Origin: an uncultured Veillonellaceae bacterium | Lineage (GTDB): Bacteria; Bacillota; Negativicutes; UBA1444 | Length of the DNA stretch: 36,452 bases | Reading direction: 5' to 3' | Assembly: GCA_964602025.1 (NCBI GenBank) | Contig: CAZRQI010000003.1 | Location: forward strand, 1 to 36,452 | Part shown: piece after piece, positions 4,849-24,004 of the stretch | Position numbering within the stretch: position 1 is the first letter of the stretch | Layout of the letters: every line of letters starts with the position of its first letter | Translations under genes and position numbers: made by a program | The notes under the pieces: generated by a model | What the model was told of the DNA's origin: nothing | The model's input: only the letters and a program-made list of their open reading frames with translations | Database searches by the model: none

Positions 4849-5724
4849 TTATTTCGCCCCCTTCAGAAGAGGATATCCCAATTTTTCACGTTGCGCCAAA
4901 TATCCTTGCGCGCAAAGACGGGCCAAATTTCGCACCCTGCCGATAAACGCCGTGCGTTCGCTGACGCTGATAGCTCCCCGGGAATTCAGCAGATTGAAAG
5001 TGTGGCTGCATTTCAGAACATAATCGTAAGCCGGCAGAACATAGCCCAGGTCAACAACCCGGACCGCTTCTTTTTCGTACATGTCAAACAGGCGGAACAG
5101 CATCTCGGTATCGGCAATTTCAAAATTGTAGTATGACTGTTCGACTTCATTGCGATGGAACACGTCACCATAGGTAATGCCATTGACCCATTCAATATCA
5201 AACACGTTTTCTTTCCCCTGAATATACATGGACAACCGTTCCAGACCATACGTAATCTCGACGGCAACCGGCTTCACGTCAATACTGCCCACTTGTTGGA
5301 AATACGTAAATTGAGTGATCTCCATTCCATCCAGCCAGACTTCCCAACCCAATCCCCAGGCGCCCAAGGTCGGCGATTCCCAGTTGTCTTCAACAAACCG
5401 GATGTCATGCTCCGCGGCTTTAATTCCCAATTGCGCCAGACTTTCCAGATACAGTTCCTGAATATTCAATGGCGACGGTTTCATGACCACCTGATACTGA
5501 TGGTGCTGAAACAGACGGTTGGGATTGTCGCCATAGCGGCCATCCGCCGGACGGCGCGAGGGTTCGACATAGGCCACGTTCCACGGCTCCGGTCCCAGCG
5601 CCCGCAGAAAAGTTGCCGGATTCATCGTACCAGCGCCTTTCTCCACGTCGTATGGCTGCTGGATGATACAGTTTTGGCCGGACCAAAACTTTTGCAGCGT
5701 CAGAATAATTTCCTGAAATGTCAT
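4849..5724 (-). CDS. glyQ: Glycine--tRNA ligase alpha subunit
   Basis: 291 aa. [48 protein letters not shown] is the highly conserved GlyQ N-terminus. GGAGGAAAAAGGC precedes the ATG. Confidence 0.95.
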
Positions 5725-5770
5725 GCCTTTTTCCTCCTTAAATTATTGCTACAAATTCAATCGTGCCCCA

Positions 5771-6016
5771 GAAAAGCAAAAACCCGTCCCTGCAACGACT
5801 ATTCGTTGCAGGGACGGGACAGTTCCCGCGGTTCCACCCTGCTTGACTCTTAACAGAGTCCGCCTTGCTTGTATGGCGAGTTTTACTCAATCCGTAAACG
5901 GATTTTTCCTCTCGCGGTTTGGGAAGGCCTTTCATCCGTCAAACGCCGAACTTCCACCCTCATCGGCTCGCTGTCTGTCCAAATGGCAGATTACTCTTTC
6001 CCGCATCACCGTAACT
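5771..6016 (-). promoter_or_regulatory. T-box riboswitch leader (glycine-specific) with intrinsic terminator
   Basis: Minus-strand RNA elements seen:
- GA/K-turn plus AGAGUA near the 5' end.
- A GGUGGAA distal-loop motif.
- GAAAGGCC with a candidate GGC specifier at 5929-5927.
- Stem III, GACUCUGUUAAGAGUC.
- T-box sequence AGGGUGGAACCGCGGG (about 5841-5825). Its UGGA bulge fits a U73 discriminator, i.e. tRNA-Gly.
- A 16-bp terminator stem (5818-5803 / 5798-5783) followed by UUUUUGCUUUUC. Confidence 0.85.
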
Positions 6017-6022
6017 GCAACT

Positions 6023-6051
6023 ATCATATCGAAAACACAAAAAAAATGCAA
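6023..6051 (-). promoter_or_regulatory. Sigma-A type promoter of the glyQS T-box leader
   Basis: On the minus strand, TTGCAT (6051-6046), a 17-nt spacer, then TATGAT (6028-6023). This places the transcription start about 6016, at the 5' end of T-box stem I. Confidence 0.6.
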
Positions 6052-6148
6052 GCCTCCTCGACGTATTTTGGGGGCAAGGCATTGTTGCCACCGACCATTT
6101 CGATGTACAATAGCAACAAAGAATATTTTGCCACAAGGAGGCTTCAGT

Positions 6149-6451
6149 ATGGCTCAATTAGAAATCCGAATTACAGCCGCCGCCCAAAAACACATAACTG
6201 AAAACGGCGATGCGCTTCAACTCATGGAAACCCGCGATTCACGCCTTGGTTGATGCCGGATCAACATTGGCCCATCCGTGCGATTGGGCGCTCCCTCTCC
6301 CAAAGATCTCGACCGCTATAACCATCTGACCATCAACGGCATTGAAATCTATATGCCTAAGTCGCTTTTTATTCCGGGGAACTTCACGATTTCCCTGCAA
6401 CGGTTTTTATGGTTCAAGTTCCTCACCATTGATGACTGGAAACTTGTTTAG
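6149..6451 (+). CDS. Candidate selenoprotein, 100 codons with in-frame UGA (codon 35, 6251-6253) followed by Cys. Small HesB/IscA-like or 'CC/Se motif'-type protein.
   Basis: AAGGAGG (6135-6141), 7 nt, then ATG 6149. The frame is open for 34 codons to the TGA, then stays open for 65 more codons to TAG 6449-6451. TGA is followed directly by TGC. Hairpins follow the TGA. The track shows only the first 34 codons, fused to a spurious upstream ORF (5723..6253). Confidence 0.55.
6255..6289 (+). promoter_or_regulatory. Candidate SECIS-like hairpin(s) immediately 3' of the in-frame UGA
   Basis: Two mutually exclusive folds:
- Fold A: 6255-6261 (GCCGGAU) pairs with 6274-6281 (AUCCG-u-GC), with one bulged U and a 12-nt loop CAACAUUGGCCC.
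- Fold B: 6270-6276 (GCCCAUC) pairs with 6282-6289 (GA-u-UGGGC), with a bulged U at 6284 and loop CGUGC. It starts 17 nt after the UGA. Confidence 0.35.
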
Positions 6452-7281
6452 ATTTTACGGGCTTCCTCTACGAGCAACGCGAGAAACGACAATTGCCCGT
6501 CCGCTTCCTGATTATCCTGAATTTGCCGCGCCAATTTATCGTTGGGAACCAACGCCGTGACCCCGCCGCAAGTTTGGTGCAACTCATACATCAACCGGTT
6601 GAGGGCGGATAATGCTTTCCCGTCCAATCGGGCGGCACCGCCGAAATCGAATTTCACGCCAGAGCACTGTCCCTGGCATTCATATTTTGTTTCCAGCGCC
6701 AGTGCCGCACAACTCCCCAACGAAAAATCCGGATTGATTTCTATCCGGATGGATCCATCCGAAAGCTTTTCAACATTATAGGGAGAAACCACTTCCGCTA
6801 TCGTCGTGTCAGTCTGGGAATCGGTTTTTTGGCTTCGCCGGTAGCGTCGCGCTTTTTCCCGAAACTCGGCGGTACTGAAAGGCTGTTTCATGATGGAAAC
6901 AACCGCTTCACACACCTGGGCCGCAGTAAACGGTTTCAGCAAAAAACCGCGTGCCCCTCGTTCCAGCGCTTCCTCGATCACCTTTCGTTGTTCCATGGCG
7001 CTGATAACTAAGAATCGTGCTTCCGGAAACGGCGCCAATATTTTTGACATGGCGGCCAACCCATTCATCGTCGGCATTCCCAAGTCCATTGTCACAACAT
7101 CCGGCTTGAGGCGGACATATTCCGTATAAGCTTTCACGCCGGTATCCGCCTCCCCGACGACCTGGTGACCGGCAGAAACCAGCATATCCTGCAGCAAACG
7201 CCGGATTGTCGCAGAATCATCCACAATCAGTATTCTTGCCAATGGGTTATCCCTCACATACCCTACTAGTATTTTTGGCAT
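6448..7281 (-). CDS. Response regulator: CheY-like receiver domain plus a C-terminal STAS-like (anti-sigma-antagonist-like) domain, with no DNA-binding domain
   Basis: 277 aa. The receiver part shows RILIVDDSATIRRLL...DVVTMDLGMPTMNG...ISAM...GFLLKPF. A Ser/Thr/Gln-rich linker follows. The C-terminal part, IRIEINPDFSLGSCAALALE...VKFDFGGAARLDGKALSALNRLMYELHQTCGGVTALV, looks like a STAS fold by eye. Confidence 0.75.
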   Translation of the reverse strand: MPKILVGYVRDNPLARILIVDDSATIRRLLQDMLVSAGHQVVGEADTGVKAYTEYVRLKPDVVTMDLGMPTMNGLAAMSKILAPFPEARFLVISAMEQRKVIEEALERGARGFLLKPFTAAQVCEAVVSIMKQPFSTAEFREKARRYRRSQKTDSQTDTTIAEVVSPYNVEKLSDGSIRIEINPDFSLGSCAALALETKYECQGQCSGVKFDFGGAARLDGKALSALNRLMYELHQTCGGVTALVPNDKLARQIQDNQEADGQLSFLALLVEEARKI

Positions 7282-14801: not shown

Positions 14802-15200
14802 TCAAAGCCCCCTTATTCGATGTCGGATGGGCCGTAAAGAAACCGGCGGAGCAATGATTTCCGCCCATACAAAACCTTGTGCAACCCCGCAGAGCTCCCA
14901 CCTCTTATCCAAAGCTGGCTCTGCCGGCAAGATTTTCGTCAACCCGGAATCATCAGTATTCATCCGCCAAGTCGGATCTCCCTCATCACCCGGCGTTCCT
15001 TCCCCATCTATGACCGGTAATGGAGGTGGCCGCATCCCGTGGGAAAGTTCCCCCGGCATTCCTGCGGCGTCTTGCCCGTTGGTCGGCACAGGGGACGGAA
15101 ATTCCGGATATTGATATGGTTTTTTTTGTTTAAACCGCTTCATGATTTCCGGGACCACATACATGACAATCATGATTACGATAAATAACCCGATGTCCAT
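14802..15200 (-). CDS. Hypothetical membrane-anchored Pro-rich protein, in the position of yqfB in the B. subtilis yqeZ-yqfA-yqfB operon
   Basis: 132 aa, with one N-terminal TM helix (MDIGLFIVIMIVMYVV) followed by a Pro/Gly/Asp-rich region. It is tightly packed between floA and the CoA-binding gene. I did not recognise any domain. Confidence 0.5.
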   Translation of the reverse strand: MDIGLFIVIMIVMYVVPEIMKRFKQKKPYQYPEFPSPVPTNGQDAAGMPGELSHGMRPPPLPVIDGEGTPGDEGDPTWRMNTDDSGLTKILPAEPALDKRWELCGVAQGFVWAEIIAPPVSLRPIRHRIRGL

Positions 15201-23650: not shown

Positions 23651-23860
23651 AAAAAAAGAGACAGGAAAAACCAATTTTTCTCCTGTCTCTGTCTTGCCTA
23701 CCTGAGAGATTAGCCTGTCGGCTCCCCATCGGTGACGCCCGCCTCCTTCGGCGACGTTCTCTCCAGAGTCTGGTCCGGTTGCAGTTCTTTTGCCTGAGAG
23801 TTTGCCAGGTCAGCCTGCCCCTTCGGCGCCGCCATTTGCTGCGAGCTCTTCCGCAACCAT
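23651..23860 (-). promoter_or_regulatory. Tandem glycine riboswitch (two aptamers) with terminator expression platform
   Basis: Minus-strand RNA elements:
- Aptamer 1: CGGAAGAG...GCGCCGAAGGGGCA...CUCUCAGGCAAAAGAAC.
- Aptamer 2: CUCUGGAGAG...CGCCGAAGGAGGC...UCUCUCAGG.
- Terminator: AGAGACAGGA(G)-loop-(U)UCCUGUCUCU followed by UUUUUUU (23690-23651). Confidence 0.85.
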
Positions 23861-24004
23861 CATCCCGCTATATTCGATTGTATGACGGAAATTTGCATTA
23901 TCGTATTAATAGGACTAATTCGAAATGACTTGCAAAAATCCTTCTTGTTGTCGCAAAAAACGGATAGCTTGTCCATCACTTTCCCTTGCGGCAAAGAATC
24001 TTCC

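What the first reader, a model, noticed from the sequence alone, without database searches (positions are those of the whole stretch)
6149..6451. In-frame TGA followed by Cys in a 100-codon ORF: candidate selenoprotein (U-C motif) that ORF callers miss
A strong SD (AAGGAGG, 6135-6141) plus ATG 6149 opens a frame that meets TGA at 6251-6253 after 34 codons.

- The same frame then stays open for 65 more codons, to TAG 6449-6451. The rough chance of 65 stop-free codons is (61/64)^65, about 0.05, assuming uniform codon usage.
- The post-TGA part has no SD or start of its own until an internal ATG 33 codons later.
- Read-through product: MAQLEIRITAAAQKHITENGDALQLMETRDSRLG-U-CRINIGPSVRLGAPSPKDLDRYNHLTINGIEIYMPKSLFIPGNFTISLQRFLWFKFLTIDDWKLV.
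- The TGA is immediately followed by TGC, giving a Sec-Cys pair. That is the usual appearance of Sec/Cys redox motifs.
- Two mutually exclusive hairpins start directly after the TGA, where a bacterial SECIS is expected. One is 6255-6281 (7 bp, one bulged U, loop CAACAUUGGCCC). The other is 6270-6289 (7 bp, one bulged U, loop CGUGC).
- By eye the layout resembles HesB/IscA-type proteins, whose first Cys sits near the same position. The layout is 'I.IT..A...I' at the N-terminus, G-[U/C]-C near residue 35, then 'L.INGIEIY.P.SL...G..I'.
- I recall RefSeq naming a small family 'CC/Se motif family (seleno)protein'. This may belong there, but I cannot verify that here.
Basis: partly seen in the sequence, partly recalled or inferred. 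Interest (0 to 1): 0.8.

Follow-up and report, generated by a model that had tools for sequence, protein, structure and literature searches.

The report
Small selenoprotein gene missed by callers
This is a real 100-codon gene whose internal TGA most likely encodes selenocysteine; it belongs to an already catalogued family (CC/Se motif family) of unknown function, so it is a correct but ordinary finding.

Summary
In detail: ATG 6149, in-frame TGA 6251-6253, TGC next, stop TAG 6449-6451.

- **Family:** with U written as C, the product matches NCBIfam NF041239 "CC/Se motif family (seleno)protein" over its full length in one stretch spanning the TGA (59 bits, cutoff 40). Relatives carry the Pfam label PF28096 CC_Se_fam.
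- **Conserved TGA:** six orthologous loci from Negativicutes MAGs and metagenomes (63-90% identity) keep TGA-TGY at this codon. dN/dS is 0.07-0.17 on both sides.
- **Cys homologues:** about 30 full-length homologues have Cys where this gene has TGA.
- **SECIS:** the hairpin at 6270-6289 (loop CGUGC, bulged U6285) starts 16 nt after the TGA and is conserved in 26 distinct sequences. One pair covaries. RNAalifold predicts the same structure independently.
- **Link to TGA:** in a metagenome scan that allowed TGA, TGC or TGT at the upstream codon, all 25 family members with this hairpin had TGA.
- **No reassignment:** TGA is the ordinary stop of 14 of 30 genes in the window.
- **Fold:** the predicted fold is IscA/SufA-like, but the C-terminal CxC is missing.
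- **Untested:** the genome's Sec machinery could not be examined.

The family is already known and its function is not.

The parts
6135..6141 (+). Shine-Dalgarno sequence AAGGAGG, 7 nt before the start codon
   Evidence: Read directly from the sequence. GGAGG is invariant in the four close orthologues (alignment A1).
6149..6451 (+). Coding sequence of a 100-residue CC/Se motif family selenoprotein (ATG 6149, Sec codon 35, stop TAG 6449-6451)
   Evidence: NCBIfam NF041239: 59 bits against a cutoff of 40, covering profile positions 2-90 of 91. A profile built from Cys-form homologues gives E 8e-30. dN/dS is 0.07-0.17 on both sides of the TGA.
6251..6253 (+). In-frame TGA, the inferred selenocysteine codon (residue 35)
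   Evidence: The TGA is conserved in L001-L006, which are 63-90% identical, and in distant Sec forms L007-L010, L058 and L059. It lies 7 residues before the conserved Pro, where 24 of 34 homologues have Cys.
6254..6256 (+). TGC, the Cys partner of Sec (U-C dyad)
   Evidence: TGC or TGT is found here in every member of the G-U-C clade. The Cys-form homologue P0007 has G-C-C in the same register.
6270..6289 (+). SECIS-type hairpin. Pairs are 6270-6289, 6271-6288, 6272-6287, 6273-6286, 6274-6284, 6275-6283 and 6276-6282. U6285 is bulged. The apical loop is 6277-6281 (CGUGC), with GpU at 6278-6279. The stem starts 16 nt after the TGA.
   Evidence: RNAalifold predicts this structure on 26 distinct sequences. 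98.4% of cells are paired, against 24-44% when the partners are slid. Pair 6274-6284 occurs as G-C in 18, A-U in 4 and G-U in 2 sequences. Synonymous sites in codons 41-47 are almost frozen. Family members with the hairpin have TGA in 25 of 25 cases.

Best explanation
Positions 6149-6451 (+) are one gene for a 100-residue selenoprotein of the catalogued CC/Se motif family (NCBIfam NF041239, Pfam PF28096).

**Decoding (inferred from the standard bacterial Sec pathway).** When the ribosome reaches UGA 6251-6253, the hairpin 6270-6289 in the mRNA recruits SelB-GTP-Sec-tRNA(Sec). The hairpin has a 7-bp stem, a bulged U6285 and an apical loop CGUGC with an exposed GpU. Selenocysteine is inserted instead of termination, and translation continues to TAG 6449.

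**Constraint on the protein.** The hairpin lies inside codons 41-47 (GPSVRLG). This is why that peptide and its codons are nearly frozen in all Sec forms of this type, while they vary in Cys forms.

**Product.** It is predicted to adopt an IscA/SufA-like fold. The U35-C36 dyad sits in a loop at or next to the position of the first ligand Cys of A-type Fe-S carriers.

**Function (inferred, low confidence).** The most likely chemistry is binding or transfer of a metal or Fe-S species, or thiol/selenol redox chemistry, at this dyad, possibly across a dimer interface.

**Shown versus inferred.** Shown here: family membership, the conserved TGA aligned to Cys, purifying selection on both sides, the conserved and covarying hairpin that is found only with TGA, and the predicted fold. 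Inferred: actual Sec insertion, SelB binding and the biochemical role.
For: **Family.** NF041239 scores 59 bits against a cutoff of 40 in one stretch across the TGA. Precomputed Pfam for relatives is PF28096 CC_Se_fam.

**Conserved TGA.**
- TGA-TGY is present in L001-L006.
- Gene callers split these genes into 34 + 57 aa, or read the TGA as W.

**Selection.** dN/dS is 0.08-0.34 upstream of the TGA (0.34 in one of the eight measurable pairs, otherwise at most 0.17) and 0.07-0.15 downstream. dS in codons 41-47 is 0-0.34, while flanking dS is 0.5 to saturated.

**Cys homologues.** 47 phmmer hits include about 30 full-length Cys forms. 24 of 34 have Cys at position -7 from the conserved Pro.

**Hairpin.**
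- RNAalifold gives the same structure as the one named here.
- 98.4% of cells pair, against 24-44% in slid controls. No shuffle out of 500 reaches the observed pairing or covariation score.
- The metagenome scan with TGH at the codon found 25 family members, all with TGA, and none with TGC or TGT.
- Other Sec forms carry different hairpins at the same distance. L058 has an AU-rich copy of the same design with loop GUUA. L059 has loop GGA.

**No code change.** 14 of 30 window genes stop at TGA.

**Fold.** The AF2 model has pLDDT 88.5 and pTM 0.77. The top seven Foldseek PDB hits are all IscA, SufA or HesB-type proteins; the best is 1r94, E 9.4e-4, TM 0.58. hhalign against IscA+SufA gives E 1.3e-4.

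**Literature.** The family is listed as a known selenoprotein family in PMC13188914. [quoted passage not shown]
Against: - No selA, selB, selD or tRNA-Sec lies in the 36-kb window (no tRNA at all; gene content). The rest of the genome could not be read.
- The hairpin alone is not thermodynamically remarkable (z = +0.85).
- Only one of its seven pairs covaries, and two sequences break that pair.
- Most stem positions in 17 of the 26 sequences were fixed by my own search pattern. Only the 9 sequences found through protein searches are unbiased for those positions.
- The functional inference is weak. Pfam Fe-S_biosyn scores below threshold (12.2 bits against 26.3), hhalign probability is only 53%, and the C-terminal CxC of A-type carriers is absent.
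- Gene neighbourhood in this clade is housekeeping and gives no functional clue.
Confidence: 0.9

Rival explanations
1. The TGA is a true stop. The locus encodes a 34-residue peptide, and perhaps a separate 57-residue protein starting at GTG 6278, as automatic gene callers annotate in relatives.
For: Gene callers produced exactly these products in related contigs: P0002, P0003, P0004 and P0031. A GTG-initiated ORF exists at 6278-6451.
Against: - About 30 homologues are single uninterrupted proteins of 92-105 aa that span both halves.
- One HMM stretch crosses the TGA.
- GTG 6278 has no SD and sits in the hairpin loop.
- The frame relation between the two halves is conserved in every relative.
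Confidence: 0.03
2. The hairpin stimulates stop-codon read-through without selenium. A near-cognate tRNA (Trp or Cys) is inserted at the UGA.
For: Sec machinery was not demonstrated for this genome. The hairpin by itself does not prove SelB binding.
Against: - The TGA column is Cys in homologues, which is the classic Sec/Cys signature.
- The hairpin has the position and the small G-containing loop described for bacterial SECIS elements.
- Hairpin and TGA co-occur strictly, 25 of 25.
- The family is curated as a selenoprotein family.
Confidence: 0.04
3. The locus is a pseudogene (nonsense mutation) or contains a sequencing or assembly error at 6251-6253.
For: A single in-frame stop in an otherwise intact ORF is what a fresh nonsense mutation looks like.
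Against: - The same TGA is present in six independent assemblies at 63-90% protein identity, and in more distant clades.
- dN/dS downstream of the TGA is 0.07-0.15.
Confidence: 0.01
4. The organism uses a genetic code in which TGA is a sense codon (Trp or Gly). This is what the callers that produced 'W' in P0001, P0032 and P0045 assumed.
For: Database entries P0001, P0032 and P0045 show W at this position.
Against: - 14 of 30 Pfam-supported genes in the window end at TGA.
- The relatives are Negativicutes MAGs.
- Homologues have Cys, not Trp or Gly, at this column.
Confidence: 0.01

Closest known systems
CC/Se motif family (seleno)protein (NCBIfam NF041239 'Moor_selen_rel'; Pfam PF28096 CC_Se_fam). 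[quoted passage not shown]
   Same: - Full-length HMM match above the curated cutoff.
- Same size, about 95-100 aa.
- Same conserved features: the Cys/Sec site 7 residues before the conserved Pro, G-I-x-V-Y-x-P-K, and the C-terminal G-W-K-L.
- TGA at the Cys column.
   Different: - In this Negativicutes clade the dyad reads G-U-C, with the partner Cys after Sec. The canonical forms are C-C or C-U.
- This clade has a 2-residue insertion after the GxP motif.
- It occupies a fixed position between glyQS and the response regulator/Smr/RecO genes, on the opposite strand.
A-type iron-sulfur carrier proteins IscA, SufA and ErpA (Pfam PF01521 Fe-S_biosyn; PDB 1r94, 2d2a, 1x0g)
   Same: - The predicted fold matches. 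The top seven Foldseek PDB hits are all of this kind, with TM about 0.57.
- The N-terminal layout is similar.
- A Cys/Sec lies at or next to the position of IscA Cys35.
   Different: - The Pfam score is below the cutoff (12.2 bits against 26.3).
- There is no C-terminal C-x-C; the protein ends in G-W-K-L-V.
- No PDB hit is found by sequence profile.
- Sequence identity is 10-16%.
HesB-like selenoprotein (TIGR01911; motif UxGP in PMC13188914)
   Same: Both are small selenoproteins related to the HesB/IscA fold, with Sec in the loop that carries the first conserved Cys.
   Different: - TIGR01911 gives no hit at E <= 1.
- The motif differs: U-C-R-I-N-I-G-P here, against U-x-G-P there.
- It is curated as a separate family.
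Bacterial SECIS elements, for example in E. coli fdhF and Moorella thermoacetica fdhA (details of these from my own knowledge)
   Same: - A hairpin in the coding region just downstream of the UGA.
- A small apical loop with an exposed G-U.
- A bulged U in the stem.
- A fixed distance to the UGA (general description in PMC1088965).
   Different: - The sequence is specific to this family.
- The bulged U is on the 3' strand of the stem.
- SelB binding has not been tested.

Membership tests
CC/Se motif family (NF041239 / PF28096) | Score at or above the curated cutoff of the family HMM, over the full length | tested here: met
   59 bits against a cutoff of 40, E 3.8e-16, protein residues 5-96 on profile positions 2-90 of 91. 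Relatives carry precomputed PF28096. PF28096 itself is not in the local Pfam copy, so it could not be scored directly.
CC/Se motif family (NF041239 / PF28096) | Adjacent Cys-Cys, or Cys with Sec, at the conserved site | tested here: met
   U35-C36 are adjacent. U lies at position -7 from the conserved Pro, where 24 of 34 homologues have Cys. The partner Cys is at -6 here rather than at the usual -8, as in the Cys form P0007.
Bacterial selenoprotein gene | In-frame UGA aligned with Cys in homologues and conserved as UGA in orthologues | tested here: met
Bacterial selenoprotein gene | SECIS hairpin immediately downstream of the UGA, with a small apical loop containing G | tested here: met
   Hairpin 6270-6289 with loop CGUGC. 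It is the RNAalifold consensus, with 98.4% of cells paired and one covarying pair. It is found only with TGA.
Bacterial selenoprotein gene | Purifying selection on the coding sequence downstream of the UGA | tested here: met
   dN/dS is 0.07-0.15 for codons 36-100.
Bacterial selenoprotein gene | selA, selB, selC (tRNA-Sec) and selD present in the same genome | not testable with these tools
   None of these lies in the window. Only 36 kb of this genome and up to 20 kb of related contigs can be read.
Bacterial selenoprotein gene | Selenium actually incorporated at the UGA | not testable with these tools
   This needs 75Se labelling or mass spectrometry.
A-type Fe-S carrier (IscA/SufA/HesB, PF01521) | Pfam gathering score | tested here: not met
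   12.2 bits against 26.3, E 0.21.
A-type Fe-S carrier (IscA/SufA/HesB, PF01521) | Three ligand cysteines, including the C-terminal C-x-C | tested here: not met
   No Cys occurs in the C-terminal part of the window protein. The family ends in G-W-K-L-[IV].
A-type Fe-S carrier (IscA/SufA/HesB, PF01521) | IscA fold | tested here: met
   The AF2 model has pLDDT 88.5. The top seven Foldseek hits are 1r94, 2d2a (chains A and B), 1x0g, 2apn, 1s98 and 2p2e, with a best E of 9.4e-4 and TM 0.58. This rests on a prediction, not a solved structure.
A-type Fe-S carrier (IscA/SufA/HesB, PF01521) | Sec/Cys equivalent to IscA Cys35 | tested here: inconclusive
   hhalign puts the first Cys of the family's C-C on IscA C35 and the Sec column on S36. 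The probability is only 53%, and the register is uncertain by one residue.
HesB-like selenoprotein (TIGR01911) | Match to the family HMM | tested here: not met
   It is not among the NCBIfam hits at E <= 1.

The most novel reading that the evidence does not exclude
The CC/Se family is a distinct, uncharacterised branch of the IscA/HesB fold. It has lost the C-terminal CxC and uses a vicinal Cys/Sec dyad, with Sec fixed at one position and the partner Cys on either side of it, to bind or hand over a metal or Fe-S species.

In some lineages it would serve [NiFe]-hydrogenase or ferredoxin maturation. The leads for this are the C-U clade placed after cytochrome b, the maturation protease and HupH, and a Sec form directly after a Fer4 gene.

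Its SECIS is so constrained that it dictates the peptide GPSVRLG.
Probability: 0.25. Interest if true: 0.5.

Novelty: already known. Interest (0 to 1): 0.25.

Why it matters
**Annotation.** This is a clean example of a selenoprotein gene that standard ORF callers break. In public collections its relatives appear as 34-aa and 55-57-aa fragments, or as full-length proteins with a false Trp at the Sec position (P0001, P0032, P0045).

**Biology.** The family is catalogued but its function is unknown. Four observations from this work could guide experiments on it:
- the predicted IscA-like fold;
- the fixed Sec position with a movable partner Cys;
- the family-specific SECIS that freezes the peptide GPSVRLG;
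- the hydrogenase-operon context of one clade.

None of these changes the basic picture. This is a known kind of gene decoded by a known mechanism.

Tried and rejected
- **Single-sequence folding** of 6251-6310 gave no signal (z = +0.85).
Only 70% of cells pair, and the 5' arm is replaced in L003 and L005.
- **Word-indexed protein search** found only 4 close relatives. The exhaustive phmmer run was needed to find the Cys forms.
Only the close-relative alignment A4 worked.
- **The U-to-C sequence could not be submitted** to the representative search, so P0001, which has W at the Sec position, was used instead.
- **Profile search against PDB sequences** found nothing at E <= 10. Only the fold comparison showed the link to IscA.
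- **DNA of the Cys form P0006**, which also has GPSVRLG, could not be fetched. Whether it keeps the hairpin is therefore unknown.
- **No sigma-70-like promoter** was detected in 5700-6600.
- **Gene-neighbourhood clustering** gave only housekeeping synteny for the window clade.
- **Three literature searches failed** with time-outs.
- **The cited source papers were not informative.** PMC2398784 and PMC5029168 do not mention the Moorella protein in their main text.
- **Rejected ideas:** genetic-code reassignment, pseudogene, and two separate ORFs (see the rival explanations).

Full report
**1. The observation**

The sequence is as described.
- AAGGAGG lies at 6135-6141 and the ATG at 6149.
- TGA is at 6251-6253 as codon 35, and TGC at 6254-6256.
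- The frame then stays open to TAG 6449-6451.
- The translation equals the one quoted in the finding.
- The long mechanical ORF 5723-6253 in the same frame is not a gene. Its upstream part overlaps a T-box leader on the other strand.
- One detail was missed: a GTG at 6278 opens a 57-aa ORF, and gene callers used the equivalent start in relatives.

**2. Family**

With U written as C, the 100-aa product matches NCBIfam NF041239 (Moor_selen_rel, "CC/Se motif family (seleno)protein").
- The score is 59 bits against a curated cutoff of 40, E 3.8e-16.
- The match is one stretch covering protein residues 5-96 and profile positions 2-90 of 91, so it runs across the TGA.
- The local Pfam copy gives only a sub-threshold Fe-S_biosyn hit (12.2 bits against 26.3).
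- Relatives in the protein collection carry the newer Pfam label PF28096 CC_Se_fam.

**3. Orthologues keep the TGA**

The word-indexed search returned four relatives.
- P0001 is a 100-aa protein with W at the Sec position.
- P0002 and P0003 are C-terminal fragments that start just after the TGA.
- P0004 is an N-terminal fragment that ends at the residue before the TGA.

Their contigs (L001-L003) and three genome-collection loci all carry TGA-TGY at the same codon. The genome loci are:
- L004, an uncultured Veillonellaceae MAG, 90% identical;
- L005, Negativicutes bacterium UBA1444, 73%;
- L006, 63%.

The window therefore comes from a member of the Negativicutes.

Nei-Gojobori estimates give dN/dS of 0.08-0.34 for codons 1-34 (0.34 in one pair, otherwise at most 0.17). 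For codons 36-100 the range is 0.07-0.15. Flanking synonymous divergence runs from 0.4 to saturation. The part after the TGA is thus under the same coding constraint as the part before it.

TGA ends 14 of the 30 Pfam-supported genes of the window, so the code is standard.

**4. Homologues with Cys, and other Sec forms**

An exhaustive phmmer run of P0001 against 1.84 billion representatives gave 47 hits.
- About 30 are uninterrupted proteins of 92-105 aa with a C-C pair at the aligned site.
- About ten are C-terminal fragments of 53-63 aa.

For four such fragments I fetched the DNA (L007-L010). Each is preceded by an in-frame TGA. Two hits with W at the site (P0032, P0045) also turn out to have TGA.

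Counted from the conserved Pro of the G-P motif:
- The canonical pair sits at positions -8 and -7. 19 of 34 homologues have exactly this pair, and 24 have Cys at -7.
- Sec is at -7 in the 36 family loci that carry the GGCCC-type hairpin and in L059. In L058, which has a loop one residue shorter, it is at -6.
- Two Sec layouts exist. C-U keeps the partner Cys at -8. G-U-C, found in the window clade and in L008, L013, L016, L024, L038 and L046, has the partner at -6. The Cys form P0007 (G-C-C) uses the same register.

Sec therefore replaces the second Cys of the canonical pair, not the first.

**5. The SECIS**

The DNA after the TGA is far more conserved than the protein requires. All Sec forms of this type have GGCCCNTCCGTGNGNNTNGGC starting exactly 15 nt after the TGA. 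This stretch encodes G-P-S-V-R-L-G. Cys forms vary at these residues.

In window coordinates the hairpin is as follows.
- Pairs: G6270-C6289, C6271-G6288, C6272-G6287, C6273-G6286, A6274-U6284, U6275-A6283, C6276-G6282.
- U6285 is bulged.
- The loop C6277-G-U-G-C6281 contains a GpU.

The evidence on 26 distinct sequences is:
- RNAalifold predicts exactly this structure.
- 98.4% of cells form standard pairs, against 24-44% when the partners are slid by 1-3 columns.
- Pair 6274-6284 occurs as G-C in 18, A-U in 4 and G-U in 2 sequences, and is broken in 2.
- No shuffle out of 500 reaches the observed covariation score.
- The two covarying positions are synonymous sites, the third base of Pro and the first base of Leu.
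- In codons 41-47, dS is 0-0.34 while flanking dS is saturated.

As a control I scanned the metagenome collection with the hairpin pattern preceded by TGH, that is TGA, TGC or TGT. It found 47 loci.
- 25 are family members by a profile built from the full-length homologues, nearly all Cys forms (E < 1e-14), and all 25 have TGA.
- None has a Cys codon.
- The other 22 hits are unrelated: 4 with TGA and 18 with TGC or TGT.

One caveat applies. For these 25 loci most stem bases were fixed by the pattern. Only positions 6, 13, 15, 16 and 18 of the 21-mer, and the nine sequences found through proteins, are unbiased.

Two further Sec forms from low-GC organisms carry different hairpins at the same distance.
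- L058 has an AU-rich copy of the same design, with a 3' bulged U and loop GUUA.
- L059 has a 6-bp stem with loop GGA.

Only 70% of cells pair, and three pairs are broken in more than 40% of sequences. Folding the window sequence alone is uninformative (z = +0.85).

**6. What the protein may do**

An AlphaFold2 model built on the 35-sequence alignment is confident (mean pLDDT 88.5, pTM 0.77). The lowest confidence is in the loop that carries the dyad.
- The top seven Foldseek hits in the PDB are all A-type carrier or HesB proteins: IscA 1r94 (E 9.4e-4, TM 0.58), SufA 2d2a, IscA with [2Fe-2S] 1x0g, HI1723, 1s98 and 2p2e. After them the scores collapse.
- hhalign against IscA+SufA gives E 1.3e-4 at 53% probability. 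It places the first Cys of the family's pair on IscA Cys35 and the Sec column one residue later.
- The family lacks the C-terminal C-x-C ligands, fails the Pfam threshold, and does not hit TIGR01911, the HesB-like selenoprotein family.

So it works like an IscA-fold protein with a single vicinal Cys/Sec site, but it is not a member of those families.

Gene context differs between clades.
- The G-U-C clade always lies alone on its strand between glyQS and a response regulator, Smr and RecO. This is housekeeping synteny that says nothing about function.
- One C-U clade (L012, L025, L028, L044, L045) lies directly after a Ni-hydrogenase cytochrome b, a hydrogenase maturation protease and a HupH-like protein.
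- L059 lies directly after a Fer4 protein.

These are leads towards metal or Fe-S handling, nothing more.

**7. What could not be done**

The window holds no tRNA and no sel gene. The tools do not allow the rest of the genome to be read, so Sec machinery is untested. Selenoprotein-rich bacteria are mostly Deltaproteobacteria and Firmicutes/Clostridia (PMC1794560). Sec use in a Negativicutes anaerobe is therefore plausible, but this is inference.

**8. Verdict**

This is a genuine member of a known selenoprotein family, decoded by the standard bacterial mechanism. Novelty is low and function remains unknown. The modest additions are:
- the defined SECIS and its coupling to the peptide GPSVRLG;
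- the fixed Sec position with two partner-Cys layouts;
- the predicted IscA-like fold;
- the hydrogenase context of one clade.

Noticed in passing
window 5807-6015 (-), with a terminator-like hairpin at 5783-5818 (-): A T-box leader lies upstream of glyQ-glyS on the minus strand. It covers Rfam RF00230 positions 1-219 of 219 with E 2.9e-14, but scores 67 bits, below the gathering score of 93, so the default scan missed it. A 16-bp terminator stem with a T-run follows it. It fills most of the intergenic region that the mechanical ORF 5723-6253 runs through.
   Followed up: partly
window 23772-23863 (-): A glycine riboswitch aptamer (RF00504, 64 bits) lies upstream of gcvT-gcvH-gcvPA-gcvPB-lplA. 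Only one aptamer was reported, not the common tandem pair.
   Followed up: no
L012, L025, L028, L044, L045 (metagenome loci); for example L044, from about 1.7 kb to 0.1 kb upstream of the TGA: In one C-U clade of the family the selenoprotein gene directly follows, on the same strand, a Ni-hydrogenase b-type cytochrome (PF01292), a hydrogenase maturation protease (PF01750) and a HupH_C protein (PF04809). It therefore sits at the 3' end of a [NiFe]-hydrogenase operon.
   Followed up: partly
L059 1001-1803; L058 68-352: Two low-GC Sec forms are recorded in the protein collection with W at the TGA. L059 lies 11 nt after a Fer4-type ferredoxin gene and has a different SECIS (6-bp stem, loop GGA). 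L058 has an AU-rich version of the window's hairpin design (3' bulged U, loop GUUA), with the GU at the same distance from the UGA.
   Followed up: partly
P0001, P0032, P0045 (protein collection): Public gene calls render the Sec codon of this family as Trp, apparently because alternative genetic codes were tried on short contigs. Other calls split the gene into fragments of 34 aa and 53-63 aa. Such entries could mislead alignments of the family.
   Followed up: yes
window 6448-6451: The stop codons of the selenoprotein gene (TAG, + strand) and of the convergent response-regulator gene (TAA, - strand) overlap within TTAG. The arrangement is conserved in the close orthologues (alignment A1).
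   Followed up: no
L030, L035, L036, L037, L040, L049, L055: Seven soil metagenome contigs share an unrelated, nearly identical stretch that matched the hairpin pattern with TGC or TGT. It translates as ...AVPHPGPSVGIGRPERGRAPGRG. It is a recurrent element of unknown nature.
   Followed up: no
PMC13188914, table of selenoprotein families: The review gives the motif of NF041239 as 'CxxU'. The Sec forms examined here show C-U or U-C (adjacent residues), in line with the family name.
   Followed up: no
window 14802-15200 (-): A 132-aa ORF between the CoA_binding_2 and FloA genes has no Pfam hit. It is conserved in position in L001.
   Followed up: no
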